Below are positions 3,001 to 30,404 of a stretch of 64,000 bases of DNA, in pieces (position 1 is the stretch's first letter; every line of letters begins with the position of its first letter). The notes under the pieces are model-generated. The model was not told where the DNA came from. It saw only the letters and a list, made by a program, of their open reading frames with translations, and did no database searches. Source of the stretch: a virus; IMG/VR virus record IMGVR_UViG_3300030098_004740, positions 28,626 through 92,625 of that record, one strand, 5' to 3'. The position numbers and the translations under genes were made by a program.

Positions 3001-5372
3001 CATCTACTACAGCTGATGGCTGTAGAGACAGATTTGGCATAATGTTTGTCAAATGGGTAAACGCTATGACACAGTTTCCAACAAACCCAATTGATGATAA
3101 ATTCTATGGACAAACTATTCCTGTAGACAAGATACCTGCACCGGGATATGTAAATACTAGATTTAGATATACAGGAGTCTGCAAGACTCATTTTAGAAAT
3201 CAGCCAGTCACTAACCTTCTTACTCAAAAAAATATAACTGATAAGTTTGATTGTCTTAATGGGACTGGAGGATTACATTATTTTGACGAAGACGATGTAG
3301 ATAGTATTCCTGTAATGGCTAAGTCTGCAACTATTCCTATTGATTTAGGATCTATAGGATATGACCAAGGTCCTCTTGGATCGAACAATATTCCCGGAGG
3401 TGCTACAAATTGGTATTACGCTACTATTACTGAGTTAAGACACGCTGCTGTAAGCAAAGACTCTTGGACTGCTTATCTGAGAAACTTGGGACAAAAACTT
3501 CCTTGTTCCATGTGGGCTATAAATCCAGTTCCACAAAATGCTTGGTCTGACTTCTGCAAGAAAGCAGATGAAGTAATGTTCAAAGGAGGCACTAGCAAAG
3601 CCCATTTAGCAATTGCAAATAACCTAAATTATTTTGCATCTGGAGGTGCTTCAGGTTCGCCAACAATAAATAGCGATGTCATAAACCATGCTGGTAATCC
3701 AAGCGAAGCTAATGCAAAGTCTGCTACTGGACATCCCTGCGGAGACGCAGAAAGAAATGCTCTTAGTTTGGGTGAAAGAACTCAAATGGAAGTAGACATT
3801 GCTTATCAAAAAGTTCAAGAGGCTGCTACTCAATTTTATGGAAGACGGTACTTAGTGCCATTACCCTTCAATCCACCAACTTCACACACTTGTAGCAATC
3901 TTGTATACAAAAATCGAGCAGACTGCACAGACAATGGGTATGATTGGGGTCCTCATGGAATGCTAAGCGAATGGTTCCAAAAGATGGGCGTTGGACAATG
4001 CTCAGATGGAGTAAGCGCTGACAAGTTTACTTGTGAAGTAACTAATAATTCTTTTTGGATAGAACCTATTAAACACATAAACAAATGGGATATAAATACT
4101 TCAGGATGGCCGGGAGGTTCTATAGATTACCAATGGGACGAAACAAAGAACACAGGCTACCCACAGAATATAAATTTCTGGACTGAAGACGGGAATTTGG
4201 AACCATTTGTTGTATTTCCTTCACACGAAAGAAAAAGATTCAGCGCAGATGCTTCAAGATTAGATTTTAGAAATTATGACCCAGAAACAATTCATGAATC
4301 AAAGTCTAATGTCGGCCCTATTGCTGGTTGGGGAACTAAAGTCTTTGTTAAAGCCAATGTAGATCCAGAAACTCACTGGATACCAGAAAGAGCTGCGTGG
4401 GAAATACAAAACGAAAAACAGTTTGCAATGTTTAGAGATGGAGATCCAGATGGCGGAACCGATCGACAAAAAAGACTAAACCAGCCAGCGAATCATTTAG
4501 CGATTGGAACGCTTGATAATTCAAAATTCCTAACAGAAAGAGAAGTCTATGTAAGAGAAGTAGACCAAAACTCTGCTGATTATTTTAAGGAAACAGCGGC
4601 TTATAAACCTTATGCATTAATCACATTACCAAATCAAGTTCTTTATGGAGATATGGACCAAACAACAAAATTCCATCCTGATATTGGAGAAGGTAAAGAT
4701 ATGTGCATACCTTTGATAAAAGCTAAAAACTCTAACGCTTTAATGAGCGCTTGGTTGCAAGGCATGGACAGAGGAGGAATTGTTGGTCAGCAATTAGTGG
4801 CTATGGCAGGCAACTTAAGAAATGCTCCAGTTGTGTCTCCCGATATGGGGAGAGGCTCTTTACAAGCTGCTGCTTATAAGCCTTGGCACGCAGCTATACC
4901 TCAACAAAGTAAGCATTTTAAATGGGGTCCTTGGGCTTTAGGAACGGGTTTTGGAAAAACTGACTATCAAGTAGACACAAGCATACAACCATCAGCATTT
5001 GGTGGAGAAAAGGCCATGGCTAATTATGCTATGTCTGGCATAAAAACTACACTTCAAAATGTAACCCCTTATATTGAGACTGGAAGCGTGACATTAGCTG
5101 GCTTACCAGCACACGCGTTTGCAACTCAAATAGTTTTGCCAATTAATGGAGTAAATTTGTTAGGTCCATTTATAACAGATATATCTGTAGCAATGGGTGC
5201 TAGTGGACTTACTACTACATACAACTTTACAACACAAGAAAAATTTGCTGATATCGACTCTATCAACAGACAAAGGATCAGAAAAAATCAAGAGGATATG
5301 TTGAAGATGCTTAAACATACAGAAGAGCAAATTGCAAAAACAAAAAGAGACATATCAAAGTATATTAAATAA
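3..5372 (+). CDS. Giant putative virion/tail structural protein (>1783 aa), 5'-truncated by the window
   Basis: The frame is open back to the window edge (NSSQSTLSLNLV...). Gly/Asp/Asn-rich with Cys modules (CSNLVYKNRADCTDNGYDW, CSDGVSADKFTCEVTNNSFW). The C-terminal ETGSVTLAGLP...GPFITDISV...TTTYNF resembles tail hub-type ends. Function is inferred from context. Confidence 0.6.
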   Translation, partial: NSSQSTLSLNLVADDGYFDAYHTLDTLPMTYPTVSWGGSSGPFGTGFGGGFFMGTTTVNVGIRDAVTEGYHPWDPNAFPATLIQKYGGVTGVKQNYAMNGDVAWLPPPGSPVYFKYYGTGNLNNACVKDRNCTPVFHFNGILGNYEKSFSTGGLTYSVTLSDPRKILENTLVILDGETGRVAAADEHYLKGTANVTNKRKYEHGWNGYYNIINVFGYYESHGFNKSRKNDQGIAWFEAKNGKQFTNHYGINHHFGVLPAIDFIASGTNDEYIKKLEPYGGPAYYGVDDRNLATYAPFSEQLNGDGVYRYAIDLSALYDLSKYYNPNPPAKGVIDDNFRINGENISLLQLIEKVCEAAGADFMVEMYAPRLGEPFYATHKDYAGIIRIIPIPRNIEVELGVLEKAIDLSQQTPSVGPFVDSEQHSILIDSSVGYEFTDPVQGKILFGAPRTRVVGVTPLGDRKTRDELFYNATTKKYIDGNPTEGTDDILREYMPSIELDGVTLHTQALPADSFQDRSEYGWNPETDLLREGGKDVLPDFEQNLPMVSNDDFLPYHFAEDVSGRNYDEADPYQFGRANSKFYETGSQCFITPPATEGSPFVISNYCTEEYDATQAAGGRAAEPHGNPKQICTNESTCTAADYCDGEWKTIEDAQGCTDAGVMYFFFYGDPSLSSQNVGQYKKVDSGLGSGYLDMFPCWGFHKTEYNSASSLLKDDINKSIKGQPIKGMFWDDDPYRDFHPIDGIFGVFDWINPGLGKCRSVEDFVDPATGQTNPNTAKGKILPALENMPLLCECDYMTAAIDDDCYTFRNSIGVKARGKFEPACEPRKRCEAQPSGDEVTDLHAGTAGVENNLHKIKFSCENACFLADANGNPTGNAVVAYYTEDVGTKTKGQAANVNDNEWMTNPPGTKGSKIKLISDKEDCEIESVSGTQTKRVVGNIKSDGSLTTGADQNKFIAEGGLYSKECIGISHKYPHSTHCEAIAGFTDPATGTKYRVGDWLPSTTADGCRDRFGIMFVKWVNAMTQFPTNPIDDKFYGQTIPVDKIPAPGYVNTRFRYTGVCKTHFRNQPVTNLLTQKNITDKFDCLNGTGGLHYFDEDDVDSIPVMAKSATIPIDLGSIGYDQGPLGSNNIPGGATNWYYATITELRHAAVSKDSWTAYLRNLGQKLPCSMWAINPVPQNAWSDFCKKADEVMFKGGTSKAHLAIANNLNYFASGGASGSPTINSDVINHAGNPSEANAKSATGHPCGDAERNALSLGERTQMEVDIAYQKVQEAATQFYGRRYLVPLPFNPPTSHTCSNLVYKNRADCTDNGYDWGPHGMLSEWFQKMGVGQCSDGVSADKFTCEVTNNSFWIEPIKHINKWDINTSGWPGGSIDYQWDETKNTGYPQNINFWTEDGNLEPFVVFPSHERKRFSADASRLDFRNYDPETIHESKSNVGPIAGWGTKVFVKANVDPETHWIPERAAWEIQNEKQFAMFRDGDPDGGTDRQKRLNQPANHLAIGTLDNSKFLTEREVYVREVDQNSADYFKETAAYKPYALITLPNQVLYGDMDQTTKFHPDIGEGKDMCIPLIKAKNSNALMSAWLQGMDRGGIVGQQLVAMAGNLRNAPVVSPDMGRGSLQAAAYKPWHAAIPQQSKHFKWGPWALGTGFGKTDYQVDTSIQPSAFGGEKAMANYAMSGIKTTLQNVTPYIETGSVTLAGLPAHAFATQIVLPINGVNLLGPFITDISVAMGASGLTTTYNFTTQEKFADIDSINRQRIRKNQEDMLKMLKHTEEQIAKTKRDISKYIK

Positions 5373-5389: not shown

Positions 5390-7180
5390 ATGGCCACAGA
5401 TAAACAACCTGTAAACGACCAAAGGTCTGAAACAGATAAAAATGACTATAGTCACTTGATGCTAACTAGTGCTAGTTATCCAGAGCAAGACATACCTATT
5501 AGAGATGCCGCTAATAATGTTTTGTTTTGGGATAATCATCCTGACTATGCGGGAAAGCCTATAAACGCTTTTAATGCATCTACTACTACAGCCACTGGAC
5601 CAGTTGCATCTTTTATGGATCAGTTTCCAAGCGATAAGGCTTGGCATAATGCTGGAGGTATGTCTATTGATGGCTTGTTTGTTCCTTATGCCACAAACTT
5701 TGCCGTAGTTAGCACAGGTGGGGAAAGAAAAAATCTGAACAAAGCTCCAGACACTTCTTCAATGCCTACTTTTGAAAGGCCATATAGTGTTGAAAAAGGA
5801 GGCGAACCATCAGACCAAGTTGATTTTGTAAACTACAATACAAAACTAGGGGCTGCTGCACCATCTCCCGCCACAATAGACTCCGCTTCTCTTAATCCAT
5901 TTGCTTCCGGCCACTATATACAAATGGTTAACAAGGAAAGTAAACAGGTTAGTCCCAACACAGACGTTTCAGGGTATTCTAAGCATTCTTCTCCTTTAGG
6001 AAAACCCAATGTTAAATCTACTGAAACAGAAAGACCAATAGGTCTTAGAGGTCCGATTGTTATTGCTGGATGGGGTTATGATGCTATTACTTCGCATCCA
6101 GTTCCTAACTTAAGATACGACTCTGATTATAGACATAATGAACCAAAGAGCGCGAATTATGGTAGGCAAAGGTATGCTCCTGAGACCATGAAGGCTAGGA
6201 CTGCTAGCGGTATGCAGCAAGACCATAAGCATTTTACTCCTTTTCATATGAGAAGACCTGACAAATGGAAAGCTGGCCCTGTTGACTTAAGATGGGATCA
6301 CAATAGAAAAGTTTGGGTTGGTGGAAAGCACAATGGAATATTTTTATCAAAAGCTACAAAGTGTATACTTCCAAAATCTGGTATAGATGGTAATAACTCT
6401 TTTAACTTTGGCGTTGGTGGTAATATTAATGCTCCCGGAAGATTATATAGAAACCCATGCCCAACGCATAACTGTAATTATCATTCATACTTTCCAACAA
6501 GTATCTATTATCCCGATATAGAAATATATGACCCAGAAGATCACAACTGGTGTGGTAGATGTAGAACTATAGGGACACAAACAGCATGTGGAGACTTCAA
6601 GGATGGATGTTCTCCTTTTTATGATGCAATTATTTTAAGAGCTGTAGATGAACAAGTAGGGAAAAATAACGAGCTTATTGAATGTACTGACAAGTTTAGA
6701 AAAGTGCAAGGCGGTACTCCTCAAGCAAGAAGAGCTGGAAACCCTTGTCATGGATGGGGTTCTAGTAAATTTGGAACTGGTGAGTTTATTAATGAAAAAA
6801 TAGGAGATGACGAAGTTTGGACAGAATATGCTAAAGCTTTGTTGTATCAAAAAATATTCGTAGAAAACCCTCTAGGTCAAGGGTTAATGGTAGGGGATGC
6901 ATTTTTTAGTTATGATACTGGTAGGAGAATAGTGTATGAATATGAAAGAACAGATACCGCAGCTTGTGGAAAAGGTGTTGGTACAAAAGTAAAAGTAAAG
7001 GAATCTATTCCTGTACATGTAATTTTACAGGGCGAATTTTATGGAATGGAAGTAATTTCACACGCAGGTTGTGATAGAGGTGAAATGGGTTCTTGTTCTA
7101 GAAAATTCTTTGCTCAAGGCTTTGCAACTGGAGAAGATTGTGGGCCAGATGATGACTATCCACAAACAGCAGGATCATAA
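5390..7180 (+). CDS. Putative virion protein with Cys-rich C-terminal half (596 aa)
   Basis: Long ORF coupled to the next gene by a TAATG overlap; core GLRGPIVIAGWGYD...WKAGPVDLRWD; many Cys after about residue 320. Confidence 0.6.
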   Translation: MATDKQPVNDQRSETDKNDYSHLMLTSASYPEQDIPIRDAANNVLFWDNHPDYAGKPINAFNASTTTATGPVASFMDQFPSDKAWHNAGGMSIDGLFVPYATNFAVVSTGGERKNLNKAPDTSSMPTFERPYSVEKGGEPSDQVDFVNYNTKLGAAAPSPATIDSASLNPFASGHYIQMVNKESKQVSPNTDVSGYSKHSSPLGKPNVKSTETERPIGLRGPIVIAGWGYDAITSHPVPNLRYDSDYRHNEPKSANYGRQRYAPETMKARTASGMQQDHKHFTPFHMRRPDKWKAGPVDLRWDHNRKVWVGGKHNGIFLSKATKCILPKSGIDGNNSFNFGVGGNINAPGRLYRNPCPTHNCNYHSYFPTSIYYPDIEIYDPEDHNWCGRCRTIGTQTACGDFKDGCSPFYDAIILRAVDEQVGKNNELIECTDKFRKVQGGTPQARRAGNPCHGWGSSKFGTGEFINEKIGDDEVWTEYAKALLYQKIFVENPLGQGLMVGDAFFSYDTGRRIVYEYERTDTAACGKGVGTKVKVKESIPVHVILQGEFYGMEVISHAGCDRGEMGSCSRKFFAQGFATGEDCGPDDDYPQTAGS

Positions 7181-10100
7181 TGGCAATAGGTGACTTCTGG
7201 GATACTTCTTATAATCCCATTTATGAATACGGGTCAAACCCGTTGAAGAATGACAGAACAGGAAAATACCAATGGGGTCCTGACTATTCTGATATTGTTC
7301 CTCAAACATCAGTAGGATCACTCAAACGCCGACAAAAAGGTCGGTTTTGCAGTGAAGGATGTGGCTGCGTAAACACTTATTGCGACAGTATGCTTCTTCC
7401 TGAAGGTCAATATGGATGTCATCTCCCTCCTGAATTGTCTATAACAGTTGTTAGAAATCCAAACGGCAGGTACGAAGCAAAAGGGGAAATTGAAGGAGGC
7501 GGTGGTGAAACTATACATCTCAAGTATTCCAAAGGATCTTGGAGAGGAAGAAGATGTTGTACTAGTAACGCTTATGGGCAATTAGAATATGCTTGCGACC
7601 CATGTAAAGTGACTACTCTTCCAAATGGCAAACCTTCTGAGTGCCATCCCGCTAATAACAAATTCAAAGATTTTGGTAAAAACAGTCATATATCTCAAAA
7701 GTCTGATAACTTTACAATCAGAGATGATTTTGATTATGACGAAGCTCTAAAAGGTGGAAGTAATTGGCCGAGGTTAGGAGAAAATGCTTGGTTAAAACTT
7801 TCTGTCTATAACGTAACAGCGCCTACAACAGGCACAGATATGCTTAGAGACACCACTTTTGACGGATTTGCTTCGTTGTGTTTTGATGCTAGCGGATTGC
7901 CTGTTAAAGGCATAGGAAACGAGGGTGATTGCTTAAAAAACAGTGGATATCATTGGAGTGAAAAAACGCCTGTTTGGATTAACAATGATATTAATGACGA
8001 AGACGATGTAGCAGGTAATGGTGGTCACATACAGCTAATAGGAACAGAAGAAGTTCCTACAAAATTTAGCATAGATGTAAAAGCTGACGAAGTTGTAACA
8101 AATATAAAGTCCAGAGAAAAGACTATAAAAGTAACAAAAGATGGATATTTAGATAATTATAGTATAAACAATGGGGCTGATCCCAACGATAGAGTTTCTA
8201 CAACAAAACTCAATTATTATGATCCAACATCAGAAGACAGAGGCTGTTTAGTTGATGGGTCAATGCCTCTAAAAAAACGTCCTTACTGTAGAAATGCAAT
8301 AACAGGAAAAAGAATACAGCAGCAATGCGAAGAAGTAACAGGTGTTAATGCTGGCTTTGGTTCAGGTTTTTCTATAACAAAAGAAAAAGAAGACTGTGAG
8401 GCCACTTCGTCTAGCATAAATGGTTACTGTAGTATAAGTGATCCTGTAACACAACAACCTTATCCAGATGAAGCCTCTTGCAATTTTGCATCAGGAACAT
8501 GGGTATGGGAAGACAACAAATGGTTATACGACGATCAAACAACATGCGAAGACGCTGGTTCTTGTCTTGCTCCAAAAACCGATAAGTTTCAAAGTCAAGA
8601 AGATAGAATTGTAGGAGCTTACTGTCTTGATATAGTTTCTGGAACAAAAGATCCTGTCCCGCAAAACAAAGCTGAATGCGAGGCTCAAGGTCATGGCATA
8701 TGGAAGCTTGGAGATAGTTCCTCATGCACAGCTTCTTACAAAGAAGGCTCTCCTGTATGTAACGATATTGATGGCAAAGATTCTGGACATGCTGATGAGG
8801 ATTCTTGTTTAGCAGCTGGAAATACATGGATGAAAAATGAATGGTTCTCAAATCAATGGGTTGATTGGGAATATGAAAAGCTATCCTGCTGTGGTGAAAC
8901 TCTTTTAGATCATAATTACCCATCAAGAACTCCTCAAATATCTGGATCAACACTAAGTGCTAGAAAAAATCCATCTTGCACTACCCCCTACCATGAAGTG
9001 ATTTTAAGTCCGTATCAAGCCGGTCAAAATATTAATACTGAGTCATATCATAGCTGTATAGCCGCAGTCAATCAGTGGCAAAGAGATGACAATACAGACA
9101 CAGAATTTTTCATGAATACAATCTCCTATTGGACTTTAGTGATAAGGCCATGTAATTTTCATGGAGGTTGTCAGGATGAAAATGTCAAAAGACCTGATCC
9201 ACAAGACCTAATAGATAATAAGCTAGACAATTACTATGACACTACATGCGGTGAAGAAATAGTACTCTATTTAAGTACAGACCAATTAGTAAATTGCTCT
9301 AACCTTAATCTAACAATAGAAAACGAAAATCAGATACGTTCGGGTTGGAAAGAAGCCCAACCTATGTGGCACAAAAGCATTGGAGATACAAAGGGTAATC
9401 CTGCAAATTTGCAATTTTTAATGCCGGGTGCTGATTCTAGTATGATTTCTGGATCTAGCTCTTATGAGTTTTCGTATCCCGGTGATGCGATGTACAAAAA
9501 CCAGTATAAGCATTGGTGTAATAATCCTGATGTAAATGTTGATGGTATTGGTGATGGTGGTGTTTGTTCGCAATATCATTACTGGAATTCAGGGTTTCCA
9601 AAAGTTCAATTAGCAAACCCTAAAGGAATTGATGCTTTTTATGGTTTCAACTTGCAGCCGCAACCTTTTAAAGCAACTGAAGAAAAACAAAATAGAGCAA
9701 AGCTTCTTTATACTGCGGCAGTAGATCATAATACATGGCAAGCTTGTGCTGGTCATATATTAGGAGATGCTAATGGTGGCGGTCATTGGTTCTGGAATTA
9801 TGGCCCAGACTATTTCATGTATTTTGATTTCCTTGCTTATGACGAAATTCATTCTTTTAATCCTGTAGCGATCAAAAATGATAGCCCAAAATGTACAGCT
9901 GTTGCTACAAAAGCCAAAGAGTATGTAGATAGTCATGTAGGATTTTTACGCAGGGGTGATTGTGGATATGGAAATGGGCCTCTTTGGGTTGGTTGGATCC
10001 CAGATTATGATAGCTGGACAAACAATAAAATATGTCCCGATTGTGGGAGTAAAGGAAAGAACAATTGTGAATCAGAAGGTGGGTGCTTAAACGCAGATGG

Positions 10101-13100
10101 CTCGTTTGAAACTGACCAAACTGATTGCTCTGAAAAAGGGCAATGCAACAGTCCTGTTGGAACCAAAACTACACATACTACAGAGGATGAATGTGACGAA
10201 GCTGGAGGCAGCTGGAGTCCTGCTAAGTTTGTACCATGTTGTGAATGGTTTGAAGAATGTAGCGAAAGGATAGTGACAAATCATCAAGATGCGGGTGAAT
10301 TTGGAATGGGAGCAGAACCAAAGTATCGAGATGCTGTAGACAAAGCTGAGTGTGAAAAACACCCAGATCAAGGCGGTGCTGGAGGTGTTTGGAGTGGAGG
10401 TTGTACTCCCGGTGTTGGACAAAGACAACAAAATCAGCTATGCGGTGAAGTACAAAACCCTCCAGAAGACTTCGTTGATATTGTTCTAGGCGAACAGTTT
10501 GGAACTTGCGTTTTACATAAAGATGGTCAAAATGCAAACATAACCGATATGTCAAAATCTGACTGCGGTGAAGAGTCAATGAAGCATGAATGTAGAATCA
10601 TTCTTACTGGCATAGTAGTTAATACTTCACAGGATGCTTGTGAGCTTAATCCATTAACTGAATGGGTTCCAGTGTATGACCAAGATCCTGCTCCTAAATT
10701 TGAACCAGACATGATTGGCCACTTCGATAGTAAATATCCAAGACGAGAAGGACCACTAACTAAATTAAGGGAGGCTGGTCCTTTAACTGGCTCGCTTGCA
10801 GATGTAAGCCAAATGAAAGGGGGATTCATTGAGCGACAGCCGGGAGTTAGTGTGGACTTCCCCTCTGGAACAGCAAAAGAAAATCCTCTTAACTACTGGC
10901 ATAGGACTGGTTTATACCCAAGAGGAGAAACCGCTAGCTATGTTAGTGATGGTTGTGTTGGTGTAAGTCATAGTGGGAGAATTGAACATGCTTCAAATAC
11001 TACCCCAATCAAGATTACTTCTAGAAGTCATGGATTAAGAAACGGCGATCTTATAATGACTCAAGATGTTCTTGGAAACTTTGCTGCAAATGTATTTTTG
11101 TCACAAAGAGACGTAAAAGAGATTCAATGGGAAGATAAGCTTGCTGGATCTTGTACTGGAGACAATTGTGATGATCAAGCTTACCCAGCATCTGAATGTT
11201 TGTTTGAAGGAAAGTGTCTTGATTCCAGCGGAAACGACACTGGCGAAAAAGATAAGTCTAAGTGCAACTCAGCTGCGGGAAATACTTGGGAAGAAGTATG
11301 TCCCTCTGAATATTTAGCTTGTTATGGCTTTAGAGTCCCCGGAAATATGGAGCCACAATACGCTCCTTTTGCAGTAGTGCAAAATGCAACAGCTGATACT
11401 TTTGATTTGTATACGTGTGATAATTTGCCACTTAAAGGCACTTTAAGTACGGGCGCAATAAAAAATCTACCTGAATCTGTAGACACACATGGACAAGTCA
11501 TAGAATGTGAAGGAGTTGGAAATGCAAGTGTTTGCTTTTGGGGTTATTTTGCACAATTCACAGGGTATTTTGGAGGGGAAATAAATCCTATCAATCCTCC
11601 TCCTTTGACATTAGGTACGGAAGTCACTGATGATCCTACTGTAAATGCTGGAAAACCCACAATTGGAAAGTGGGCAGCTAGATGTATTGCCTACGATAGC
11701 GGAAAGGTTATAAACCAAGCAGATGACGCTAGGTCTGAATACAAGTTTAATCCTTTCGCAGTATTAACCGGCGCCCCTATTAATGAAAACTACACCTGTG
11801 GTGGAACAATAGCTGATGGAGGGCATTGGTGTGGTGCAAGCGATTGTGATAGTCGTTTTGGAAAATGGATGACTGAACAAGAGATGGCGGATAACGTTCT
11901 TACGAAGTCAAAAATAGAGGGTTCTAAAGAAGTATGTGAGTCTTATGGTATATGTAATATTATAAAAAATGCTCAAGAAAAAGCGCCTAAGTCAGTAATG
12001 ACAAAAAGTGATTGCAAGAAACTATCTAAAGTTTATCATACTTTGGATTTGGATGCTGGATACCATGACGATTCGCAAATTTATGTTGAAAGATGTCAAG
12101 ACGCAGATGGGAATATAGATAACAGTCCAGAAATTCAAGACGCTCTTGATATAAAAAAGGCTTGTGAAGAAAGAGGTTCTTGTTCTGAAGCCTTTTTTGG
12201 TAACAAAAAAGATTGTGAAGGAAATGGCTTTATATGGAATGGTGGAACATATATCAAAAAAGCCAATAACTGCGTAGGCGACGAAATGGAGGGGCAAGAT
12301 AATGATCTTTGCTGGACACCAAATGTCTTTGGTACAGAAATAGACCTTAGTAGTACCAGTGGTGGAGGTCTTGGAAATGACCGACCACTTCCAAACTATC
12401 CGGTGTGTCCCTATACAGGAACTTGGGAAATATTCCATCAAGACTTGGGAATAGCAGCTGGATATTTCACTGAAAATCAGTTTGATTCTATTTATAGATT
12501 TGGATGGGGTGGATTAACAAGAAGATGGGAAGAAAGAGCTAACGATTATTACATTCAAATAGAGCAAAAAGGTATATGTCCTGTTTGTTGTGATCATTTT
12601 CTACCAGAAACACTAACTGCCACTATTAGTGATACAGGCAGTAGTCTCCAAGACATTGTTGGCGGATGTCCAATAGATCCATGTGAGGCTGGCGATTTTA
12701 TATTTGATGATGATGCTACAGCTAGAGGTACAAGATCAGGATGGAAAAAAACAAGTGGGAAATTTAGCGGTTCGTTTGATGGATATTGTTGCAGTGATTT
12801 TTATCACCCTTGCTCGATACCAGAAGATGAATTAACAAAATGCATTGCTGACCCTACCCAGTTTGGCCATTGTTATAGAGTGAGTAATGCAAGTGGTCAA
12901 GAACCCGGACTTTTAGCTGGTGCGTATACAAAAGATGAATGCGCAAAAAGAGGTTCTGGCGCAGGAGGTTGTAGTAAAAGCGGAATTTGTACAGTAAATC
13001 CTCAAGGAAATCAAACTCCAGCAGATTGCGAAGCTGCCGGAGGAACTTGGAGTCCTGTCACTGATCAGACAGGATGTACAAGCGCAGGAGGTACTTGGAC

Positions 13101-16100
13101 TCCTAGAGATGGTCATACTAAATTCTATCCATTGCCAGCTGGTAGTTGTGAATTTCCTCATCCATTTGTAGATGCTGATGGCAATGTATTAGAAACAATA
13201 CCAGATGATGCACAAACCGATAAAGCTTCATGCGAAAGAGAATATTGTTCTTTTGATCAAATTGATAATCAACAAGATTGCGAAAACGCCACTGATGATC
13301 AAGGAAATCCAGCAGGTTATAAATGGATGCTAGGAAGTTGGTCTGAAAACACTAAGGAAGAATCTGCTTATATCTGTGAAGATTTTCTAAGAAAAAGACC
13401 AACACAAGCTTATGATGATAGGTATCCAGAGACAGCAAGAAATTGTAGAAAATGTTCTAACCTATACAGTGACCAAAATAAAGCTCCTATTAAAAAAGAA
13501 TTTGCAGGGTGTGGTTGTGATTGTCTTGTAAATCATGTTGACGCGCTTGCTTTTGAAAGGTATCCTACCTGCCGAGAGGCTATAGGTGGTTTACTACCAG
13601 ATTGCACTCCAGAAATCTTAGGTCAACAACATACACTTGGCACAGCAGGCGCGTTGTTAGCTGTTTGTACGGCGGGTACTGGATCTCCGGCGGGAACAGG
13701 AACTGGCACTGAGGTATATTATTATTGGTCATTTGATCCTTGTCAATGCTTCCCTCAAAATGTTCCTCATAAGTGCATCGGTGATCATATACCTTTAGAA
13801 TATGGAAACAGTTGTGAAGATGATGGAGTTGTTTTACCGTCCAATAATGTCGGAGGTTGTTATAATTCAAGTAATGCTCTTATCTTAACCAAAACTGTTG
13901 AGCATGGAGCCAGTTGTAAAGATGGTATTGGTAGCATTGTTGCTGGTGTAACTACTAGAGATGAATGTATTTCTATAGCTGGTCGAGTTTGGAATACAAC
14001 AGCTTTAGATTGCGACACAAATGCTGGTGAGTACTTCAAAGCTGGTAACAAATTGGAATGTGGTGTAGTCGAAGTATCAACAGATGGTTATTCGGCTCCA
14101 TATTCTCTACCAAACTCTGCGCAGCCTCAATATGAAACATGTCCCGGTTTAGGAGCAATTGATGTTTCATTGAAATATGATGGTTCTGTTTGGCGTTCTG
14201 ATTGGACTCAAATGGGAGCAGTTGGGACAAAACAATGCAAGATGGGTCAACATAGATTCGTCTTCTCTCCCAACTGTAAGAGTACCGGACAGAGTCCATC
14301 AACCGCACCGAAAGGTTATGCTTTCCGTTCTTCGTCTGATCTAGTTGCAATAAACGCAGATTGTGGAAATTGCGATGCAGCACAATATTCTTATCAAGGC
14401 GTTAGGGTTTTTGGTCATGACCCACTAAACTATACGTACAGAGGACATGAATTCCCTACAGATGTAAAAGACAGTCATTATATTAGACTTGTCATGGGTT
14501 GTGGAAATAGCGTATCAAGCATAACACCAGAAGACGCAATGGTAAAACAAGGAGGTTTTGGAGGAGGTAGGCACACTTATAGAGACAATGGAATAGAAAT
14601 TTATGCACAAATAGCCAACTGTACTTTCTATGACTTTGACGCGAGCGAAGGTTTAAGGTTTGGAAGAGTTAATGAGGGTACTAGCGGACAACCTCCATGC
14701 CATGGCAGCAATTGTATAAGCAAAGCTAAAACTTTTGGAGATTGGACGGAAACTGGCAAACCGACGATTAGTGAAAGAATATTCAGTTTTGCTGGAAGAT
14801 GCATAGATGGACGAGCTAATTGTGGAAATCAAGGGCCTTGCGCAAAAATTGCAAGTTGTTGTGTATATACAGGAAGAGACGTACCTTTACAGACTGGCTT
14901 GGATGGTCAATCATTTCCGTTATGGAGTGGTGGAGTAGCCTGCACTACAGGAGGTGACATTGAACACAGATGTAGTGCTTGGGGTTACGATCCGTTTCCG
15001 AAAAAACCAGCAGAAGTATTCACTGTTTATTATGTAAAAGAAATACATGATGATGGAAGTGCAACCCTTGTTGTCAACAAGGGTATGGGGTGTTCTTGGC
15101 CCAAAGGTACTGTTGTAGGCATTGGTCACGCTGAATTACTAGACGCTGAAAATGATGACTTTGGTAGCACAACAAGAAACAACATGCCCAGAAATCCTTT
15201 TTTGCCAGCAGGAGCTACTCATCTATTAGGAAGTAGAGTATTTAACTACGATCAAAAAAGTTCTGGCGCTCCTATGGTGCTGTCAGATAGATGGGAAGTT
15301 TATGGAGAGTTTGATAATAAGACATTTGCTACCGAATATCCAATAGATGTAGAAGACCCTGCAATTCCTGATGGTAGAGGCAATCAGTTCACTCTTGGTC
15401 GTCCAGAACGTGGAAATACTGGTTTTATGGAAATAACAGTCGCAAGTATTGAGCCTCTCATAAGTAAAAACCCCAGACAAAATAGGCACTTAAAAATTTA
15501 TGATAGAAGTGGAATATTAGATGCTAATGGAACATTCGATCCTAAAGACGCAGACATGCTTCCAAATCGTGATTATGCACATCCATTTGGATTAAATCCA
15601 TGGCCTGTAGGAGTTCAAAATCATTCTTCAACTGGTAGAACGCAAGACATGTGGCCTAAAGGTGTTCCCATGGGATGGGAAAACACTGAGCATTTGAGAA
15701 AAGATCCTGTCGCTGCTCATACAGCTTTAGGAAGAGTTGGACTAAAGCCAACGGCTGAAAATTTAAACATGCTATCTGTTTATAATGAGGTATCACAAGG
15801 AAATACGACAACTCCGATCCCATTAATCATGCCAGTAACAACAGTCATGATTAATTCGATTGATAACGTTTATGCAACAGATGACGAAGATGGAACTTGT
15901 GTAGGAAAAGTAGCATACACAAAACAACAATGTCAATCTGGAGGAGCAAGCGCAGGAAGATGGATTCCTAGATTCCTTTATACAAAAGCTACAACTGGAC
16001 AACCGCACGACATAAGTGATGGCGAAAAAATAATTGTCAGCGGATCTGTCGCCTATCCAGCTACTTGTAGAGGGACTAGGCTTGGTTATTGCCATGGAGA

Positions 16101-18462
16101 TGTCTCGTTAACCATTAACGAATGCATGAAAGGTGTTTGCAAGGACGTTCAACATCCAAATGGTTTTGGCATAACCGGATCAATAAAAAAATATCATATT
16201 GATCCAGACACAAACAAACCTTGGGATACAGAACATGACTGCTCAATAGCGAGTGAGCAGAAAAGACAAGATTTAACTTCAAACGGCTGGGATCCAGATG
16301 GCACTTTTACTAAAGATCTAGTTTTCACTCCTAATGGACAATGGGTTCAAGTATATGAGGATCACGAAGCTGACGAACAAATATGCGAAGCTTTTGGTGG
16401 CGGATGGGTAGTTGGAAAAACCAATAATAAACAAGACAATAAAGGGCTATACGAGGATCCAACAAATGATTTTCCTGATGATTTAGATAACAAAGAAAAA
16501 GATTTTGTTCAAGGTTGTCCAGTAAATTGTCAAATTAATGGATTTATGATTCAAGATGCTTGTACTTCGCATTATGATTATGGTCAATGTTATGAGTGTC
16601 TCTTGCTAACAATAAAAGATGATCAAGGAAACGAAACTGAAGAATCCAGATGTCCTAGAGCTGAGCATGATGGAATGTACATAGCAAGGACGAATCCTGA
16701 AAGATACTGTCAAAATACTAATTATGATCCTGACTTTTCTAGCACTACAAATGGAAATCAAAGAAAACAAGCAATAGCCAATGCAAAGATAGAATGCATC
16801 AGAGCTGGTTTTGACTGGTATGGAGATGTACCACTTTCGTTAAAAGCAGATTCTAATGGAAATGAGCATTCATTTGAAATAGCTCTTCATGGCGAATTTA
16901 ATATGGATTTTGTTGATGGGGCAAAAATCTATGGAAGCGAAAGAGTGCCTCTTAGAGCAATGACTAAAGGTAGAAATGTTAAGAGTGATTGGCAATTAGA
17001 TGTTGAAGTCCACGAAGGAATTATTGTTGATCCTTTGGGTGACTTTAAAGATGATGCTAACTACACAGTACCAATAACAAAAGAAGAGTGCTTAACAGTA
17101 AGAGAACATGTGTGGATAGACACAACACCTGCTCGTCCACCTTCACCGTTTGGAAACACACAAACAAAAGGCACTGCAAATCAAACTCCTCTAGTGTCTT
17201 CTGCGTTTACTTCTGGATTTGGATATAAAACATATGGACAAGCAGGAACTAGTCCAACAGGAAACGTAGCAAACGGAACTGTAGGAGAATGTGTTTACAT
17301 CAGAAAAATAAGACGGTTCATGGAAAATTGGATTCCCCGTACAAACAATACTGGCGTTTCCTTAATACAAACTAATGAGTTCCTTGAGGAAGATGTTGAC
17401 GGAAATGCTGCCAAGATAGTATCTTCTCTTCAAGACGCCTGCGTAAGATCAGACAATTGTATATTAAATAAGAAGTTTGGTTGGTGTATGGATCTTACTG
17501 AGAATACACTTGGAACTTGTTATGAATATCTTCAAAACGGCGGAACTTGGAGAGAATCAAATCAACCAGCCAATAAATGTACTGATATATTTGTAGGACA
17601 ACAACAAGTTATAGGCTCTAGCACGTTAACCACATCTTTGAGCGAAAGAGAAGCATGTGCAACAAAAGGTATGCAGGCTTATGGTGGAGGGATTGGAACT
17701 ACGGTAAGCTCTACTGCTGTTGTAGATGATTTTGAATGTATGGATCCTCAAGTGCCTGCTTATCAGTCAACTTTTTCTTGTACAGTTAGTGATCCAGTCA
17801 CTCAACAGCCTTATACAGATGAGTTTTCTTGTATCGTTGGTGGAGGTCAATGGATTGAGACACCTCCAGCAAAACCAATAAGAGGTGCTGGAATGACTGA
17901 AAGGGTTTGTAGAGAAGTAGCATTAGGACATCCAGTCTACAAGAATAATCAAGGAGAAGTTATATCGCCTGCTCCAGAATATGGGCCAAGTACAATGAAC
18001 AAAGCCTTCCTTGATTTACAAGCATTGTCTTCAAAAGAGGCCATTGCTATGGGTCATGAGACTGGTATAGGAGAGACTCAAAGAGTTTACAAAGGTGTAA
18101 TATACGCTCCTAATATTGAGAAAAATCAATTTATGGGTGGTAAGGAAATAGAAACCTATACTAAATATGGAGTTCAAGAAAATGAAAGAGCTGTATGGAG
18201 CAGACATGGCGGATCTTTCGATATAATTGTAGGGTATCCACCACCGGAAAATAATTGTAGAGACGCTAATTCAACCGGACCTGTAAATCTAGATTGGCAT
18301 TTAGGGTTTGATCAAATATGTTGCAATGTTAGAGGTCCTTTGAAATTTTATCAATGTGCAGACAGATGTTATCATAATTACGAAGGTCCTTTAATTACAG
18401 ATTTAGAGCAGGATTTTAAAACAACTGGAGTGTCACATCTGATTGTAAATGTTCATGATTGA
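7180..18462 (+). CDS. Giant cysteine-rich repeat protein (3760 aa), putative tail fibre/adhesin
   Basis: 11.3 kb ORF with about 20 C-x(n)-C-x3-G(G)-x-W modules and two beta-barrel-like segments (ITSRSHGLRNGDLI; TTGQPHDISDGEKIIVSG) of a type common in phage tail proteins. No signal peptide. Confidence 0.7.
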   Translation: MAIGDFWDTSYNPIYEYGSNPLKNDRTGKYQWGPDYSDIVPQTSVGSLKRRQKGRFCSEGCGCVNTYCDSMLLPEGQYGCHLPPELSITVVRNPNGRYEAKGEIEGGGGETIHLKYSKGSWRGRRCCTSNAYGQLEYACDPCKVTTLPNGKPSECHPANNKFKDFGKNSHISQKSDNFTIRDDFDYDEALKGGSNWPRLGENAWLKLSVYNVTAPTTGTDMLRDTTFDGFASLCFDASGLPVKGIGNEGDCLKNSGYHWSEKTPVWINNDINDEDDVAGNGGHIQLIGTEEVPTKFSIDVKADEVVTNIKSREKTIKVTKDGYLDNYSINNGADPNDRVSTTKLNYYDPTSEDRGCLVDGSMPLKKRPYCRNAITGKRIQQQCEEVTGVNAGFGSGFSITKEKEDCEATSSSINGYCSISDPVTQQPYPDEASCNFASGTWVWEDNKWLYDDQTTCEDAGSCLAPKTDKFQSQEDRIVGAYCLDIVSGTKDPVPQNKAECEAQGHGIWKLGDSSSCTASYKEGSPVCNDIDGKDSGHADEDSCLAAGNTWMKNEWFSNQWVDWEYEKLSCCGETLLDHNYPSRTPQISGSTLSARKNPSCTTPYHEVILSPYQAGQNINTESYHSCIAAVNQWQRDDNTDTEFFMNTISYWTLVIRPCNFHGGCQDENVKRPDPQDLIDNKLDNYYDTTCGEEIVLYLSTDQLVNCSNLNLTIENENQIRSGWKEAQPMWHKSIGDTKGNPANLQFLMPGADSSMISGSSSYEFSYPGDAMYKNQYKHWCNNPDVNVDGIGDGGVCSQYHYWNSGFPKVQLANPKGIDAFYGFNLQPQPFKATEEKQNRAKLLYTAAVDHNTWQACAGHILGDANGGGHWFWNYGPDYFMYFDFLAYDEIHSFNPVAIKNDSPKCTAVATKAKEYVDSHVGFLRRGDCGYGNGPLWVGWIPDYDSWTNNKICPDCGSKGKNNCESEGGCLNADGSFETDQTDCSEKGQCNSPVGTKTTHTTEDECDEAGGSWSPAKFVPCCEWFEECSERIVTNHQDAGEFGMGAEPKYRDAVDKAECEKHPDQGGAGGVWSGGCTPGVGQRQQNQLCGEVQNPPEDFVDIVLGEQFGTCVLHKDGQNANITDMSKSDCGEESMKHECRIILTGIVVNTSQDACELNPLTEWVPVYDQDPAPKFEPDMIGHFDSKYPRREGPLTKLREAGPLTGSLADVSQMKGGFIERQPGVSVDFPSGTAKENPLNYWHRTGLYPRGETASYVSDGCVGVSHSGRIEHASNTTPIKITSRSHGLRNGDLIMTQDVLGNFAANVFLSQRDVKEIQWEDKLAGSCTGDNCDDQAYPASECLFEGKCLDSSGNDTGEKDKSKCNSAAGNTWEEVCPSEYLACYGFRVPGNMEPQYAPFAVVQNATADTFDLYTCDNLPLKGTLSTGAIKNLPESVDTHGQVIECEGVGNASVCFWGYFAQFTGYFGGEINPINPPPLTLGTEVTDDPTVNAGKPTIGKWAARCIAYDSGKVINQADDARSEYKFNPFAVLTGAPINENYTCGGTIADGGHWCGASDCDSRFGKWMTEQEMADNVLTKSKIEGSKEVCESYGICNIIKNAQEKAPKSVMTKSDCKKLSKVYHTLDLDAGYHDDSQIYVERCQDADGNIDNSPEIQDALDIKKACEERGSCSEAFFGNKKDCEGNGFIWNGGTYIKKANNCVGDEMEGQDNDLCWTPNVFGTEIDLSSTSGGGLGNDRPLPNYPVCPYTGTWEIFHQDLGIAAGYFTENQFDSIYRFGWGGLTRRWEERANDYYIQIEQKGICPVCCDHFLPETLTATISDTGSSLQDIVGGCPIDPCEAGDFIFDDDATARGTRSGWKKTSGKFSGSFDGYCCSDFYHPCSIPEDELTKCIADPTQFGHCYRVSNASGQEPGLLAGAYTKDECAKRGSGAGGCSKSGICTVNPQGNQTPADCEAAGGTWSPVTDQTGCTSAGGTWTPRDGHTKFYPLPAGSCEFPHPFVDADGNVLETIPDDAQTDKASCEREYCSFDQIDNQQDCENATDDQGNPAGYKWMLGSWSENTKEESAYICEDFLRKRPTQAYDDRYPETARNCRKCSNLYSDQNKAPIKKEFAGCGCDCLVNHVDALAFERYPTCREAIGGLLPDCTPEILGQQHTLGTAGALLAVCTAGTGSPAGTGTGTEVYYYWSFDPCQCFPQNVPHKCIGDHIPLEYGNSCEDDGVVLPSNNVGGCYNSSNALILTKTVEHGASCKDGIGSIVAGVTTRDECISIAGRVWNTTALDCDTNAGEYFKAGNKLECGVVEVSTDGYSAPYSLPNSAQPQYETCPGLGAIDVSLKYDGSVWRSDWTQMGAVGTKQCKMGQHRFVFSPNCKSTGQSPSTAPKGYAFRSSSDLVAINADCGNCDAAQYSYQGVRVFGHDPLNYTYRGHEFPTDVKDSHYIRLVMGCGNSVSSITPEDAMVKQGGFGGGRHTYRDNGIEIYAQIANCTFYDFDASEGLRFGRVNEGTSGQPPCHGSNCISKAKTFGDWTETGKPTISERIFSFAGRCIDGRANCGNQGPCAKIASCCVYTGRDVPLQTGLDGQSFPLWSGGVACTTGGDIEHRCSAWGYDPFPKKPAEVFTVYYVKEIHDDGSATLVVNKGMGCSWPKGTVVGIGHAELLDAENDDFGSTTRNNMPRNPFLPAGATHLLGSRVFNYDQKSSGAPMVLSDRWEVYGEFDNKTFATEYPIDVEDPAIPDGRGNQFTLGRPERGNTGFMEITVASIEPLISKNPRQNRHLKIYDRSGILDANGTFDPKDADMLPNRDYAHPFGLNPWPVGVQNHSSTGRTQDMWPKGVPMGWENTEHLRKDPVAAHTALGRVGLKPTAENLNMLSVYNEVSQGNTTTPIPLIMPVTTVMINSIDNVYATDDEDGTCVGKVAYTKQQCQSGGASAGRWIPRFLYTKATTGQPHDISDGEKIIVSGSVAYPATCRGTRLGYCHGDVSLTINECMKGVCKDVQHPNGFGITGSIKKYHIDPDTNKPWDTEHDCSIASEQKRQDLTSNGWDPDGTFTKDLVFTPNGQWVQVYEDHEADEQICEAFGGGWVVGKTNNKQDNKGLYEDPTNDFPDDLDNKEKDFVQGCPVNCQINGFMIQDACTSHYDYGQCYECLLLTIKDDQGNETEESRCPRAEHDGMYIARTNPERYCQNTNYDPDFSSTTNGNQRKQAIANAKIECIRAGFDWYGDVPLSLKADSNGNEHSFEIALHGEFNMDFVDGAKIYGSERVPLRAMTKGRNVKSDWQLDVEVHEGIIVDPLGDFKDDANYTVPITKEECLTVREHVWIDTTPARPPSPFGNTQTKGTANQTPLVSSAFTSGFGYKTYGQAGTSPTGNVANGTVGECVYIRKIRRFMENWIPRTNNTGVSLIQTNEFLEEDVDGNAAKIVSSLQDACVRSDNCILNKKFGWCMDLTENTLGTCYEYLQNGGTWRESNQPANKCTDIFVGQQQVIGSSTLTTSLSEREACATKGMQAYGGGIGTTVSSTAVVDDFECMDPQVPAYQSTFSCTVSDPVTQQPYTDEFSCIVGGGQWIETPPAKPIRGAGMTERVCREVALGHPVYKNNQGEVISPAPEYGPSTMNKAFLDLQALSSKEAIAMGHETGIGETQRVYKGVIYAPNIEKNQFMGGKEIETYTKYGVQENERAVWSRHGGSFDIIVGYPPPENNCRDANSTGPVNLDWHLGFDQICCNVRGPLKFYQCADRCYHNYEGPLITDLEQDFKTTGVSHLIVNVHD

Positions 18463-27559: not shown

Positions 27560-27689
27560 ACTTTTCTGCCGCTTCTTGTGCTTCTTCTATAGTGTGAAAA
27601 GGTCCAAGTTTAACCTTAACTTTGTTTTCCACATATTTCCAAGCATACCATTCATAGTTGTTTTTAATCCAACCCCAGTAGTTTCCCAT
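27540..27689 (-). CDS. 49-aa AP2-like mini-protein (not in the ORF track)
   Basis: My translation: MGNYWGWIKNNYEWYAWKYVENKVKVKLGPFHTIEEAQEAAEKYESSNK*. It fills the gap between its neighbours and carries an LG.F.T.EEA motif. Confidence 0.6.
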   Translation of the reverse strand: MGNYWGWIKNNYEWYAWKYVENKVKVKLGPFHTIEEAQEAAEKYESSNK

Positions 27690-27691
27690 TA

Positions 27692-30403: not shown

Positions 30404-30404
30404 C

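What the first reader, a model, noticed from the sequence alone, without database searches (positions are those of the whole stretch)
8287..8868. Recursively nested ('Russian-doll') two-cysteine module in a 3760-aa phage protein
Seen: a ~25-aa module C-x(8-16)-[TDN][KQE]xxC-xxx-G(G)-x-W recurs about 20 times, and copies sit inside the loops of other copies rather than in tandem. This stretch parses like brackets: [CRNAITG..[CEEVTG..KEDCEATSSSINGY[CSISDP..EASCNFASGTW]VWEDNKW]LYDDQTTCEDAGS[CLAPK..Y[CLDIV..KAECEAQGHGIW]KLGDSSSCTASY..[CNDID..EDSCLAAGNTW]MKNEW]FSNQW]. The run AGNTW-MKNEW-FSNQW reads as three successive closing strands. Inference: each module is a disulfide-stapled hairpin/helix that tolerates insertion of further copies, producing a branched, tree-like surface protein instead of a linear fibre. 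I do not know of a described phage protein built this way.
Basis: partly seen in the sequence, partly recalled or inferred. Interest (0 to 1): 0.82.

Follow-up and report, generated by a model that had tools for sequence, protein, structure and literature searches.

The report
Recursively nested cysteine modules, phage tail
A 3,760-residue tail-tip protein of an uncultured marine phage carries a 25-30-residue two-cysteine building block, also present once each in the T4 baseplate proteins gp8 and gp10, that sits inside copies of itself three deep, and relatives show the same spot holding from 2 to more than 15 blocks.

Summary
Window 8287-8868 (aa 370-563 of ORF 7180..18462) has 12 Cys and parses completely into six modules of the form Cys1 - loop - short helix with Cys2 - Gly turn - Trp strand, nested three deep. 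No shuffle matched this. AlphaFold2 puts all six Cys1 on strands and all six Cys2 in helices, in balanced bracket order.

Alignment of 28 homologues supports the nesting. Modules that are interrupted here are uninterrupted canonical modules in other relatives. Six of the window's simple modules are interrupted by further modules in some relatives. Inserts carry even numbers of Cys. Both the Cys1-Cys2 loop and the Gly turn accept inserts, which makes a branched nest.

Not shown: that the Cys pairs are disulfides (no model coordinates were available) and that the whole protein is tree-like. Only about 50 of its 167 Cys lie in modules.

The module is not new. My HMM finds one copy each in T4 gp8 and gp10, both with solved structures, and a profile search finds it in pilin-like, secreted and other phage proteins. 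It has no Pfam family of its own. This scan had already reported a linear five-deep nest of the same module in another phage (e1-5898298). What is new here is branching recursion and a graded evolutionary series.

The parts
7180..18462 (+). Giant tail-tip ORF, 3760 aa, 167 Cys (4.4%), no signal peptide evident
   Evidence: It lies fifth after the tape measure gene in a same-strand tail block. 28 full-length homologues of 3004-4216 aa were found.
8287..8859 (+). Outermost module A (Cys1 aa 370, Cys2 aa 456, closing Trp aa 560). Module B sits in its loop and module C in its Gly turn.
   Evidence: Parser. Cys370 on a strand, Cys456 in a helix, Trp560 on a strand. P0022 has a 4-Cys, two-module version of this region.
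8326..8523 (+). Module B (Cys 383 and 406, Trp 448), interrupted in its Gly turn by M1
   Evidence: It is an uninterrupted canonical module in P0010, P0011, P0020 and P0021, and is likewise uninterrupted in P0015, P0018, P0019 and P0029. It is interrupted in 13 homologues.
8428..8502 (+). M1, innermost complete module (Cys 417 and 434, Trp 441)
   Evidence: Regex and HMM. Absent as a unit in 8 homologues. A different module occupies the same site in P0014, P0023, P0026-28 and P0030.
8563..8844 (+). Module C (Cys 462 and 516, Trp 555), holding M2 in its loop and M3 in its turn
   Evidence: Parser. Strand/helix/strand labels in both models. In P0012, P0016 and P0017 it lacks M2.
8623..8703 (+). 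M2, complete module (Cys 482 and 500, Trp 508)
   Evidence: HMM 19.4 bits. Absent in P0012, P0016, P0017, P0020, P0022, P0024, P0025 and P0029. Itself interrupted by several modules in P0013 and P0014.
8758..8829 (+). M3, complete module (Cys 527 and 543, Trp 550)
   Evidence: HMM 29.4 bits. Interrupted by a 4-Cys insert in P0013 and P0014.
12970..13098 (+). Second nest: outer module (Cys 1931 and 1966, Trp 1973) with an inner module (Cys 1937 and 1950, Trp 1957; nt 12988-13050) in its loop
   Evidence: The whole 48-aa, 4-Cys unit is absent from P0007 and P0008.
7879..7956 (+). Simple module (Cys 234, Trp 259)
   Evidence: HMM 20.2 bits. Interrupted in P0009 (turn) and P0015 (loop).
10144..10215 (+). 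Simple module (Cys 989, Trp 1012)
   Evidence: HMM 24.6 bits.
11215..11289 (+). Simple module (Cys 1346, Trp 1370). The 87%-identical P0003 and other relatives carry a 68-73-aa, 6-Cys unit in its Gly turn that the window lacks.
12181..12237 (+). Simple short-loop module (Cys 1668, Trp 1686)
   Evidence: HMM 14.1 bits. Absent in P0007. Interrupted in P0015 and P0020.
13915..13992 (+). Simple module (Cys 2246, Trp 2271). P0004-P0006 have a complete 27-aa module inserted in its loop.
15898..15963 (+). Simple module (Cys 2907, Trp 2928). P0021 has a module inserted in its loop.
17779..17853 (+). Simple module (Cys 3534, Trp 3558), closest in sequence to M1. P0008 has a 6-Cys nest in its loop.

Best explanation
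The stretch encodes six copies of one autonomous mini-domain of about 25-30 residues. Each copy has a short beta-strand carrying Cys1, a variable loop, a helix of one to two turns that is N-capped by Thr/Asp/Ser/Asn and carries Cys2, a Gly or Gly-Gly turn, and a second short strand carrying Trp.

The first and last elements are adjacent strands, so the two ends of the unit lie together. That lets it be spliced into a loop of any host fold, including the two permissive sites of another copy: the Cys1-Cys2 loop and the Gly turn. Repeated insertion at these sites produced the depth-3 branched nest seen here. The nest projects from a conserved position of a giant tail-tip protein.

Each unit is most likely pinned by its own Cys1-Cys2 disulfide. 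This would form after release into oxidising sea water or with help from a phage thioredoxin-like protein. It would give a compact, protease- and shear-resistant surface outgrowth whose variable loops are free to diversify, probably for host-surface contact.

Shown: the module, its recurrence, the nest order, and gain and loss of whole modules at the two sites. Inferred: disulfide chemistry, three-dimensional shape and function.
For: - Statistics: the motif count and the full parse of the stretch are far above shuffles.
- Structure prediction with a 29-row alignment: pLDDT 76.2 for aa 340-600 and 86.5 for aa 455-566. All six Cys1 lie on strands, all six Cys2 in short helices, and the closing Trp residues on strands, except Trp448, which is unassigned.
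- Comparative: module B is an uninterrupted canonical module in P0010, P0011, P0020 and P0021 but is split by M1 here. M2 is absent in 8 homologues. P0022 has 2 modules at this locus and P0013/P0014 have many more.
- A census on the family alignment finds 23 sites where Cys1, Cys2 and Trp stay aligned while 15 or more extra residues with 2 or more Cys appear between them, at both the loop and the turn.
- Of 62 pairwise insert events of 14 aa or more among close homologues, 44 carry an even non-zero number of Cys, 7 carry none and 11 are odd; several of the odd ones visibly arise where one insertion is split at an alignment boundary.
- Inserted units are bounded exactly by Cys1 and Trp and hold two Cys, so they must pair with each other or stay free.
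- Where both columns are occupied, joint loss of Cys1 and Cys2 occurs 21 times against about 6 expected.
- Independent proteins found with the module profile include a four-deep nest (P0071), a type IV pilin-like protein with 8 tandem copies (P0057), and many proteins with signal peptides. This points to an extracellular, oxidised setting.
- The HMM picks out exactly gp8 (16.7 bits) and gp10 (12.9-13.0) among 146 T4 ORFs; the next best scores 1.4.
- Disulfide networks in phage tails are documented for phage Milano (PMC10811340, title seen).
Against: - No Cys-Cys distance could be measured, because the tool returns no coordinates.
- The protein has no export signal and would fold in a reducing cytoplasm.
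- The total Cys count is odd (167) and about 117 Cys lie outside modules, some in CxxC- or CC-type clusters that look like metal sites. Not all Cys chemistry here is disulfide.
- The family alignment was made by MAFFT on very long repetitive proteins. Several of the 23 census sites are alignment or regex artefacts, for example those with 28 Cys or with non-module inserts.
- The homologue alignment has only 29 rows.
- No function was tested.
Confidence: 0.7

Rival explanations
1. The nest order is right, but the cysteines are metal ligands or free thiols rather than disulfides. The units would be held by zinc or iron, or only by the Trp core, as expected for a protein folded in the cytoplasm.
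For: No signal peptide. No DsbA-family hit in the record. The same protein has invariant CxxC- and CC-type clusters elsewhere, for example aa 57-63, 139-143 and 1800-1806. T4 gp8 and gp10 carry the module and assemble in the E. coli cytoplasm.
Against: Each unit has only two Cys and no conserved His, too few for a metal site. Units are gained and lost singly with exactly two Cys. The module occurs in pilin-like and signal-peptide proteins. A CPHC thioredoxin-like gene is present.
Confidence: 0.15
2. The pattern is an out-and-back two-legged stalk. Front halves (strand-helix) and back halves (Trp strands) would be separate repeat arrays that expand by coordinated duplication, not by insertion of whole modules into modules.
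For: In P0071, four near-identical front halves are followed by four similar short Trp units. Earlier scan reports describe such stalks in other phages.
Against: In this window the nest is branched, using loop and turn sites, which a two-array stalk cannot give. Observed indels are contiguous complete modules (Cys1 to Trp), not paired distant pieces. Modules also occur singly in unrelated hosts.
Confidence: 0.1
3. There is no real nesting. The stretch is a Cys/Trp-rich region with three tandem modules and unrelated linker cysteines, and the bracket parse is a chance reading.
For: On token order alone, a random string of 12 Cys and 6 Trp parses about 8% of the time (my calculation, 1428 of 18564 arrangements). 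A random strand/helix labelling of the 12 Cys is balanced 14% of the time.
Against: With real spacings the parse is matched by 0 of 3000 composition shuffles and by 0.03% of shuffles that permute Cys/Trp identity at fixed positions. The 'linker' cysteines form canonical uninterrupted modules in other homologues.
Confidence: 0.05

Closest known systems
Single C-x10-C-x3-G-G-x-W unit in phage T4 baseplate wedge proteins gp8 (aa 142-160; PDB 1N7Z, 1N80, 5IV5) and gp10 (aa 331-349; PDB 5HX2, 5IV5)
   Same: Same motif, spacing and order of elements. My module HMM, built only from the giant-protein family, scores them 16.7 and 12.9-13.0 bits against 1.4 for the next T4 ORF. Both are tail-tip or baseplate proteins.
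   Different: There is one isolated copy per protein with no nesting. It is not described as a domain and is only buried in the Pfam models Phage-Gp8 and Gp10_D3, which give recurrent sub-threshold local hits at module sites. I could not superpose structures.
Si3 insertion of cyanobacterial RNA polymerase (eight sandwich-barrel hybrid motifs, PMC10895346)
   Same: Copies of one fold that are not in simple tandem. Several units are assembled from distant parts of the chain because other copies lie inside them.
   Different: Those units have 80-100 residues and no cysteine staple. The context is cytoplasmic and enzymatic, and no graded series at one site is reported there.
Tandem disulfide mini-domains of extracellular proteins (EGF-like, thrombospondin type 1, LDL-receptor class A)
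   Same: Small size, cysteine dependence, use as repeated surface building blocks.
   Different: Those have 6 Cys and are strung head to tail. Here there are 2 Cys per unit and the units sit inside one another. No Pfam match to any of them passes its threshold.
Disulfide-networked phage tails, e.g. Agrobacterium phage Milano (PMC10811340)
   Same: Precedent that tailed-phage tail proteins use disulfides for mechanical stability.
   Different: In Milano the bonds link subunits of the sheath and tube. Here the proposed bonds lie within tiny modules of one chain.
Earlier report of this scan, e1-5898298 (five front halves then five back halves of the same Cys/Trp module in gp7 of a marine T4-like phage)
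   Same: Same module, same insertion into the Gly turn, same lack of a database entry.
   Different: That nest is linear. The present one also uses the Cys1-Cys2 loop, so it branches. It sits in a long-tailed, tape-measure-type phage, and homologues give a stepwise series.

Membership tests
Cys-loop-helix(Cys)-GlyGly-Trp mini-domain as in T4 gp8/gp10 | Two Cys 10-17 residues apart, the second followed by x3, then G or GG, then x, then W | tested here: met
   14 uninterrupted copies against 1.9 expected. T4 gp8 and gp10 each show one copy by regex.
Cys-loop-helix(Cys)-GlyGly-Trp mini-domain as in T4 gp8/gp10 | Profile cross-recognition between the window's modules and the T4 copies | tested here: met
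   An HMM built from the giant-protein family scores gp8 at 16.7 and gp10 at 12.9-13.0 bits. All other 144 T4 ORFs score 1.4 or less. In the window's own genome only the three tail-tip ORFs score 8 or more.
Cys-loop-helix(Cys)-GlyGly-Trp mini-domain as in T4 gp8/gp10 | Strand - helix - strand secondary structure with Cys1 on the strand and Cys2 in the helix | tested here: met
   AlphaFold2 DSSP in two models shows this for all six modules of the stretch, apart from Trp448 (module B) left unassigned in model 1. This is a prediction only.
Cys-loop-helix(Cys)-GlyGly-Trp mini-domain as in T4 gp8/gp10 | Three-dimensional superposition on the solved copy, and the Cys-Cys distance | not testable with these tools
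   No coordinates are returned. Whole-model fold searches cannot score a 25-residue piece.
Pfam PF09215 Phage-Gp8 / PF22670 Gp10_D3 (whole domains) | Match over the curated cut-off | tested here: not met
   No Pfam family at E <= 0.01 for the 3760-aa protein. Only a local Gp10_D3 hit, E 0.68, over about 16 profile positions on a module fragment.
Recursively nested same-module insertion | Outer unit intact and uninterrupted in some homologues, interrupted by a complete unit in others | tested here: met
   Module B, and six of the window's simple modules. Example pair: P0007 and P0008 near their C-termini.
Recursively nested same-module insertion | Cysteines pair in bracket order | tested here: inconclusive
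   This follows by parsimony from units that carry exactly two Cys and from intact outer pairs in insert-free homologues. There is a weak excess of joint loss. No direct measurement was possible.
Zinc-ribbon or zinc-knuckle type metal modules | Four Cys/His ligands per unit | tested here: not met
   Two Cys per unit and no conserved His in the module alignment.
Tail-associated lysin / tail-tip protein of long-tailed phages | Gene position after the tape measure gene; lytic domain | tested here: inconclusive
   The position is met: the tape measure protein is identified by PF10145 and PHROGs and the giant ORF is fifth downstream. A peptidase M23 domain is on record only in homologues P0019, P0021, P0027 and P0028, not in the window's protein.

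The most novel reading that the evidence does not exclude
A 25-residue, self-stapling mini-domain acts as a universal insertable brick that grows by a bracket-like rule: any copy can receive another copy at either of two sites. Phage tail proteins, and some bacterial surface proteins, would use it to build branched, dendrimer-like outgrowths of arbitrary depth. In this phage the bricks would be oxidised by its own DsbA-like CPHC thioredoxin. That would be an undescribed mode of protein growth with a dedicated folding helper.
Probability: 0.25. Interest if true: 0.8.

Novelty: new variant of a known kind. Interest (0 to 1): 0.62.

Why it matters
Small disulfide modules are normally strung in tandem. 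Here the same tiny unit is inserted into itself repeatedly and at two sites. Natural relatives preserve the intermediate stages, from 2 to more than 15 units at one locus.

This offers a rare, directly testable series for how proteins grow by domain insertion. It also defines a very small, insertion-tolerant scaffold that protein engineers could use to graft loops. The module is widespread but uncurated: it occurs in T4 gp8 and gp10, marine phage tail proteins, pilin-like proteins and secreted bacterial proteins, so naming it would annotate many hypothetical proteins. If the cysteines are oxidised, it adds to the evidence that marine phage tails rely on disulfides despite cytoplasmic assembly.

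Tried and rejected
- The search for related loci in IMG/VR with the fragment found no relative.
- megablast and tblastn of the gene against GenBank phages found nothing. tblastn of a single 33-aa module found nothing.
- Pfam and PHROGs on the whole protein and its neighbours gave nothing for the giant ORF. Pfam at E <= 10 on fragments gave only chance-level rows.
- ESM Atlas gave no usable hit for the stretch. For aa 2560-2900 it gave only leads under 0.9, to G8 / CEMIP beta-helix families.
- PDB searched by sequence with the module profile and with the whole protein gave nothing.
- Fold searches of both models: Foldseek PDB best E 0.85 and 2.2; BFVD best E 0.2; VIA-align wide found no Z >= 2 for the 261-residue model and best Z 2.1 for the 112-residue model. 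A missing match does not prove a new fold.
- Literature searches for the motif, for DUF7167 and for cysteine-rich giant phage proteins found nothing relevant.
- I looked for a mobile DNA element behind the spread. Module copies are only about 60% identical in DNA and there are no long direct repeats in the gene, so recent transposition-like spread is rejected.
- The Erv1/ALR search was uninformative because its control rang nowhere.
- My first, stricter parser failed on long loops and was relaxed; the controls were rerun with the same relaxed rules.
Full report
**What is there.** Window 8287-8868 lies in frame in a single ORF, 7180..18462 on the + strand, of 3760 aa. The protein is rich in Gly (10.2%) and Cys (4.4%, 167 residues). 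The window is part of a 92.6-kb IMG/VR virus record that CheckV estimates as 61% complete.

Upstream on the same strand lies a 2522-aa tape measure protein, identified by PF10145 and several tape-measure PHROGs. It is followed by ORFs of 960 aa (LamG-like), 759, 1819 and 596 aa, then the 3760-aa ORF, then ORFs of 205 and 236 aa. The minus strand carries a split DnaE, ribonucleotide reductase, DnaB, primase and a RecA-like protein. So the gene belongs to the tail-tip block of a large long-tailed phage. One cluster member of a homologue carries a TARA Oceans viral-fraction sample name, which points to a marine origin.

**The motif is real.** Across the whole protein, compared with 1000 shuffles:
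- A regex for uninterrupted modules (C, 6-22 non-Cys, C, 2-8 non-Cys, G, 0-2, W) finds 14 copies against 1.9 +/- 1.4.
- The stricter second half alone finds 22 against 1.9 +/- 1.7.

An HMM built from 179 such modules of the protein family has 28 positions. In all six-frame ORFs of the phage record it scores 8 bits or more only in the giant ORF (11 domains) and in the two tail-tip ORFs of 1819 and 759 aa.

**The bracket parse.** The stretch has Cys at aa 370, 383, 406, 417, 434, 456, 462, 482, 500, 516, 527 and 543. A parser that replaces each innermost module by a placeholder and repeats reduces aa 370-562 to a single unit of depth 3. It uses all 12 Cys and six closing Trp (441, 448, 508, 550, 555, 560). 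None of 3000 composition shuffles did so. Only 0.03% of shuffles that keep all Cys/Trp positions but permute their identity did so. On token order alone the parse would not be remarkable, at about 8% by my count. It is the spacing plus the comparative data that carry the argument.

**Predicted structure.** AlphaFold2 was run with a 29-row family alignment.
- aa 340-600: pLDDT 76.2, pTM 0.65.
- aa 455-566: pLDDT 86.5, pTM 0.73.

In both models every proposed Cys1 (370, 383, 417, 462, 482, 527) lies on a short strand and every proposed Cys2 (406, 434, 456, 500, 516, 543) lies in a helix of 5-6 residues. In model 1 the closing Trp residues lie on strands, except Trp448, which DSSP leaves unassigned; the last three strands come in immediate succession. 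The tool returns no coordinates, so Cys-Cys distances could not be measured.

**Comparative test.** A search of 5.8 billion proteins returned 29 proteins, 28 of them clear full-length homologues (87% to about 29% identity, 3004-4216 aa) plus one marginal hit (P0031). All come from metagenomes and none is named. In the alignment of the region:
- M1 is missing as a unit in P0010, P0011, P0015, P0018-P0021 and P0029. In those proteins the surrounding module B reads as an uninterrupted module.
- A different module occupies the same Gly-turn site in P0014, P0023, P0026-P0028 and P0030.
- M2 is missing in eight homologues.
- P0022 has only two modules (4 Cys) between the same conserved flanks.
- P0013 and P0014 have several further modules inside M2 and M3.

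Among the seven closest proteins there are 62 pairwise insert events of 14 aa or more. Of these, 44 carry an even non-zero number of Cys, 7 carry none and 11 carry an odd number; several of the odd ones visibly arise where one insertion is split at an alignment boundary.

A census over the whole family finds 23 sites where a canonical uninterrupted module in some proteins keeps Cys1, Cys2 and Trp aligned in others, while 15 or more extra residues with 2 or more Cys appear in between. These appear either in the Cys1-Cys2 loop or in the Gly turn. Several of the 23 are alignment artefacts, but many are clean. Clean cases involving the window's own simple modules are:
- The module at aa 1346 has a 68-73-aa six-Cys unit in its turn in the 87%-identical P0003.
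- The module at aa 2246 has a complete 27-aa module in its loop in P0004-P0006.
- The modules at aa 234, 1668, 2907 and 3534 are interrupted in other relatives.

Inserted units run from Cys1 to Trp and hold exactly two Cys. The outer pair persists without the insert. So bracket-order pairing is the parsimonious reading. Joint loss of Cys1 and Cys2 occurs 21 times against about 6 expected. That figure is weak evidence because relatedness and alignment errors are not controlled.

**Wider distribution.** A 32-position profile of 11 window copies was searched against 1.84 billion representatives. It gave 44 proteins at E <= 0.001. Two are clear false positives (P0054, P0062). The rest include:
- a pelagiphage-related distal-tail-like protein with tandem copies (P0051);
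- a type IV pilin-like protein with eight tandem copies (P0057);
- an RCC1-propeller protein and ZnuA-like periplasmic proteins with single inserted copies;
- phage fibre-like proteins (P0080, P0081, P0092);
- many proteins with signal peptides;
- P0071, in which four front halves are followed by four short Trp units, a four-deep linear nest;
- prohead-protease or scaffold-like proteins that carry a permuted form, with helix Cys, GG-x-W, then a Cys 12-13 residues after the first.

**Link to known structures.** Recurrent sub-threshold Pfam rows at module sites pointed to Phage-Gp8 and Gp10_D3. An earlier report of this scan (e1-5898298) named T4 gp8. I checked this directly. T4 gp8 has the module at aa 142-160 and gp10 at aa 331-349. 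The family HMM scores them 16.7 and 12.9-13.0 bits, while the best of the other 144 T4 ORFs scores 1.4. Both proteins have solved structures: 1N7Z and 5IV5 for gp8, 5HX2 and 5IV5 for gp10. A T4 review states that Cys555 is the only Cys of gp10 conserved among T4-like phages (PMC3004832). This fits the module being an optional insert there too. The brick is therefore known in structure but unnamed. The nested assembly has no counterpart in PDB or BFVD by Foldseek or VIA-align.

**How it probably works.** The unit's first and last elements are neighbouring strands, so its ends meet. That property makes a domain insertable. Its two surface sites, the loop and the Gly turn, tolerate any length. 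Insertion of copies into copies yields the branched nest.

The two Cys most likely form an intramodule disulfide linking strand 1 to the helix. The arguments are two Cys per unit, no conserved His, even-numbered gains and losses, and the module's use in exported proteins. Against this, the protein has no export signal, and many other Cys of the protein sit in clusters that look metal-binding.

The phage encodes two adjacent thioredoxin-fold proteins, one with the classic CGPC site and one with the DsbA-type CPHC site. They may serve the ribonucleotide reductase, or the CPHC protein may help oxidise the tail protein. This was not tested.

The function of the nest is inferred only from its position in a tail-tip protein and its rapid module turnover. 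The likely role is a rigid, stable, variable surface outgrowth for host contact. Some homologues have a peptidase M23 domain elsewhere in the protein, which fits a tail-tip or cell-wall-penetration role for the scaffold.

**Comparison and novelty.** Same-fold nested insertion is documented for the Si3 region of cyanobacterial RNA polymerase, where several units contain elements from distant parts of the chain (PMC10895346). Disulfide networks are documented in a phage tail (PMC10811340). This scan has already reported a linear nest of this very module on other DNA. New here are recursion at two sites, giving a branched nest from such a small unit, the graded natural series at one locus, and the demonstration that half of the simple modules of one protein are hosts for further modules in relatives. 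I found no paper or database family describing the module.

I rate it a new variant of a known kind, of moderate to high interest.

Noticed in passing
window 56885-57181 (-) and 57186-57467 (-): Two adjacent thioredoxin-fold genes (PF00085, 33.7 and 49.3 bits). One has the classic W-C-G-P-C site. The other has W-C-P-H-C, the strongly oxidising DsbA-type dipeptide. It could serve ribonucleotide reductase or help oxidise the Cys-rich tail proteins.
   Followed up: partly
window 11215-11289 (aa 1346-1370): Relative to its 87%-identical homologue P0003, and to most of the family, the window's protein lacks a 68-73-aa six-Cys unit in the Gly turn of this module. A clean canonical module remains, so this looks like a precise modular deletion.
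   Followed up: partly
proteins P0058, P0060, P0061: Prohead-protease (ClpP-type) or scaffold-like proteins carry 3 tandem copies of a permuted form of the module: helix Cys, x3, GG-x-W, then a second Cys 12-13 residues after the first. Weak Pfam DUF7167 rows lie next to them.
   Followed up: no
protein P0071 aa ~68-160; protein P0057: P0071, which has a signal-peptide-like start, has four near-identical front halves followed by four short Trp units, a four-deep linear nest. P0057 is a type IV pilin-like protein with eight tandem modules. The brick is therefore also used by bacteria.
   Followed up: partly
window 7348-7368, 7552-7608, 8884-8898, 12577-12597, 12784-12798: Family-invariant Cys clusters outside the modules (C-x3-C-x-C, CC pairs, C-P-V-C-C-D-H) look more like metal sites than disulfide modules. 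About 117 of the 167 Cys are not in modules.
   Followed up: no
homologues P0019, P0021, P0027, P0028: A peptidase M23 domain (PF01551) is on record for these homologues; in P0021 it appears inserted mid-protein. It is absent from the window's protein. This fits a tail-associated cell-wall-degrading role for the scaffold in part of the family.
   Followed up: no
G000 28538-33997 (window 3-5372) and G000 26259-28538: The neighbouring 1819-aa and 759-aa tail-tip ORFs each hold one or two copies of the same module (HMM 17.7, 8.8 and 8.6 bits).
   Followed up: partly
protein P0021 aa ~900-1100 and ~1300-1560: Long arrays of a different three-Cys unit (C-x5-C-x5-12-C-x3-W), about 28 Cys in one insert, sit inside a module loop. 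They look like a second kind of brick in the same family.
   Followed up: no
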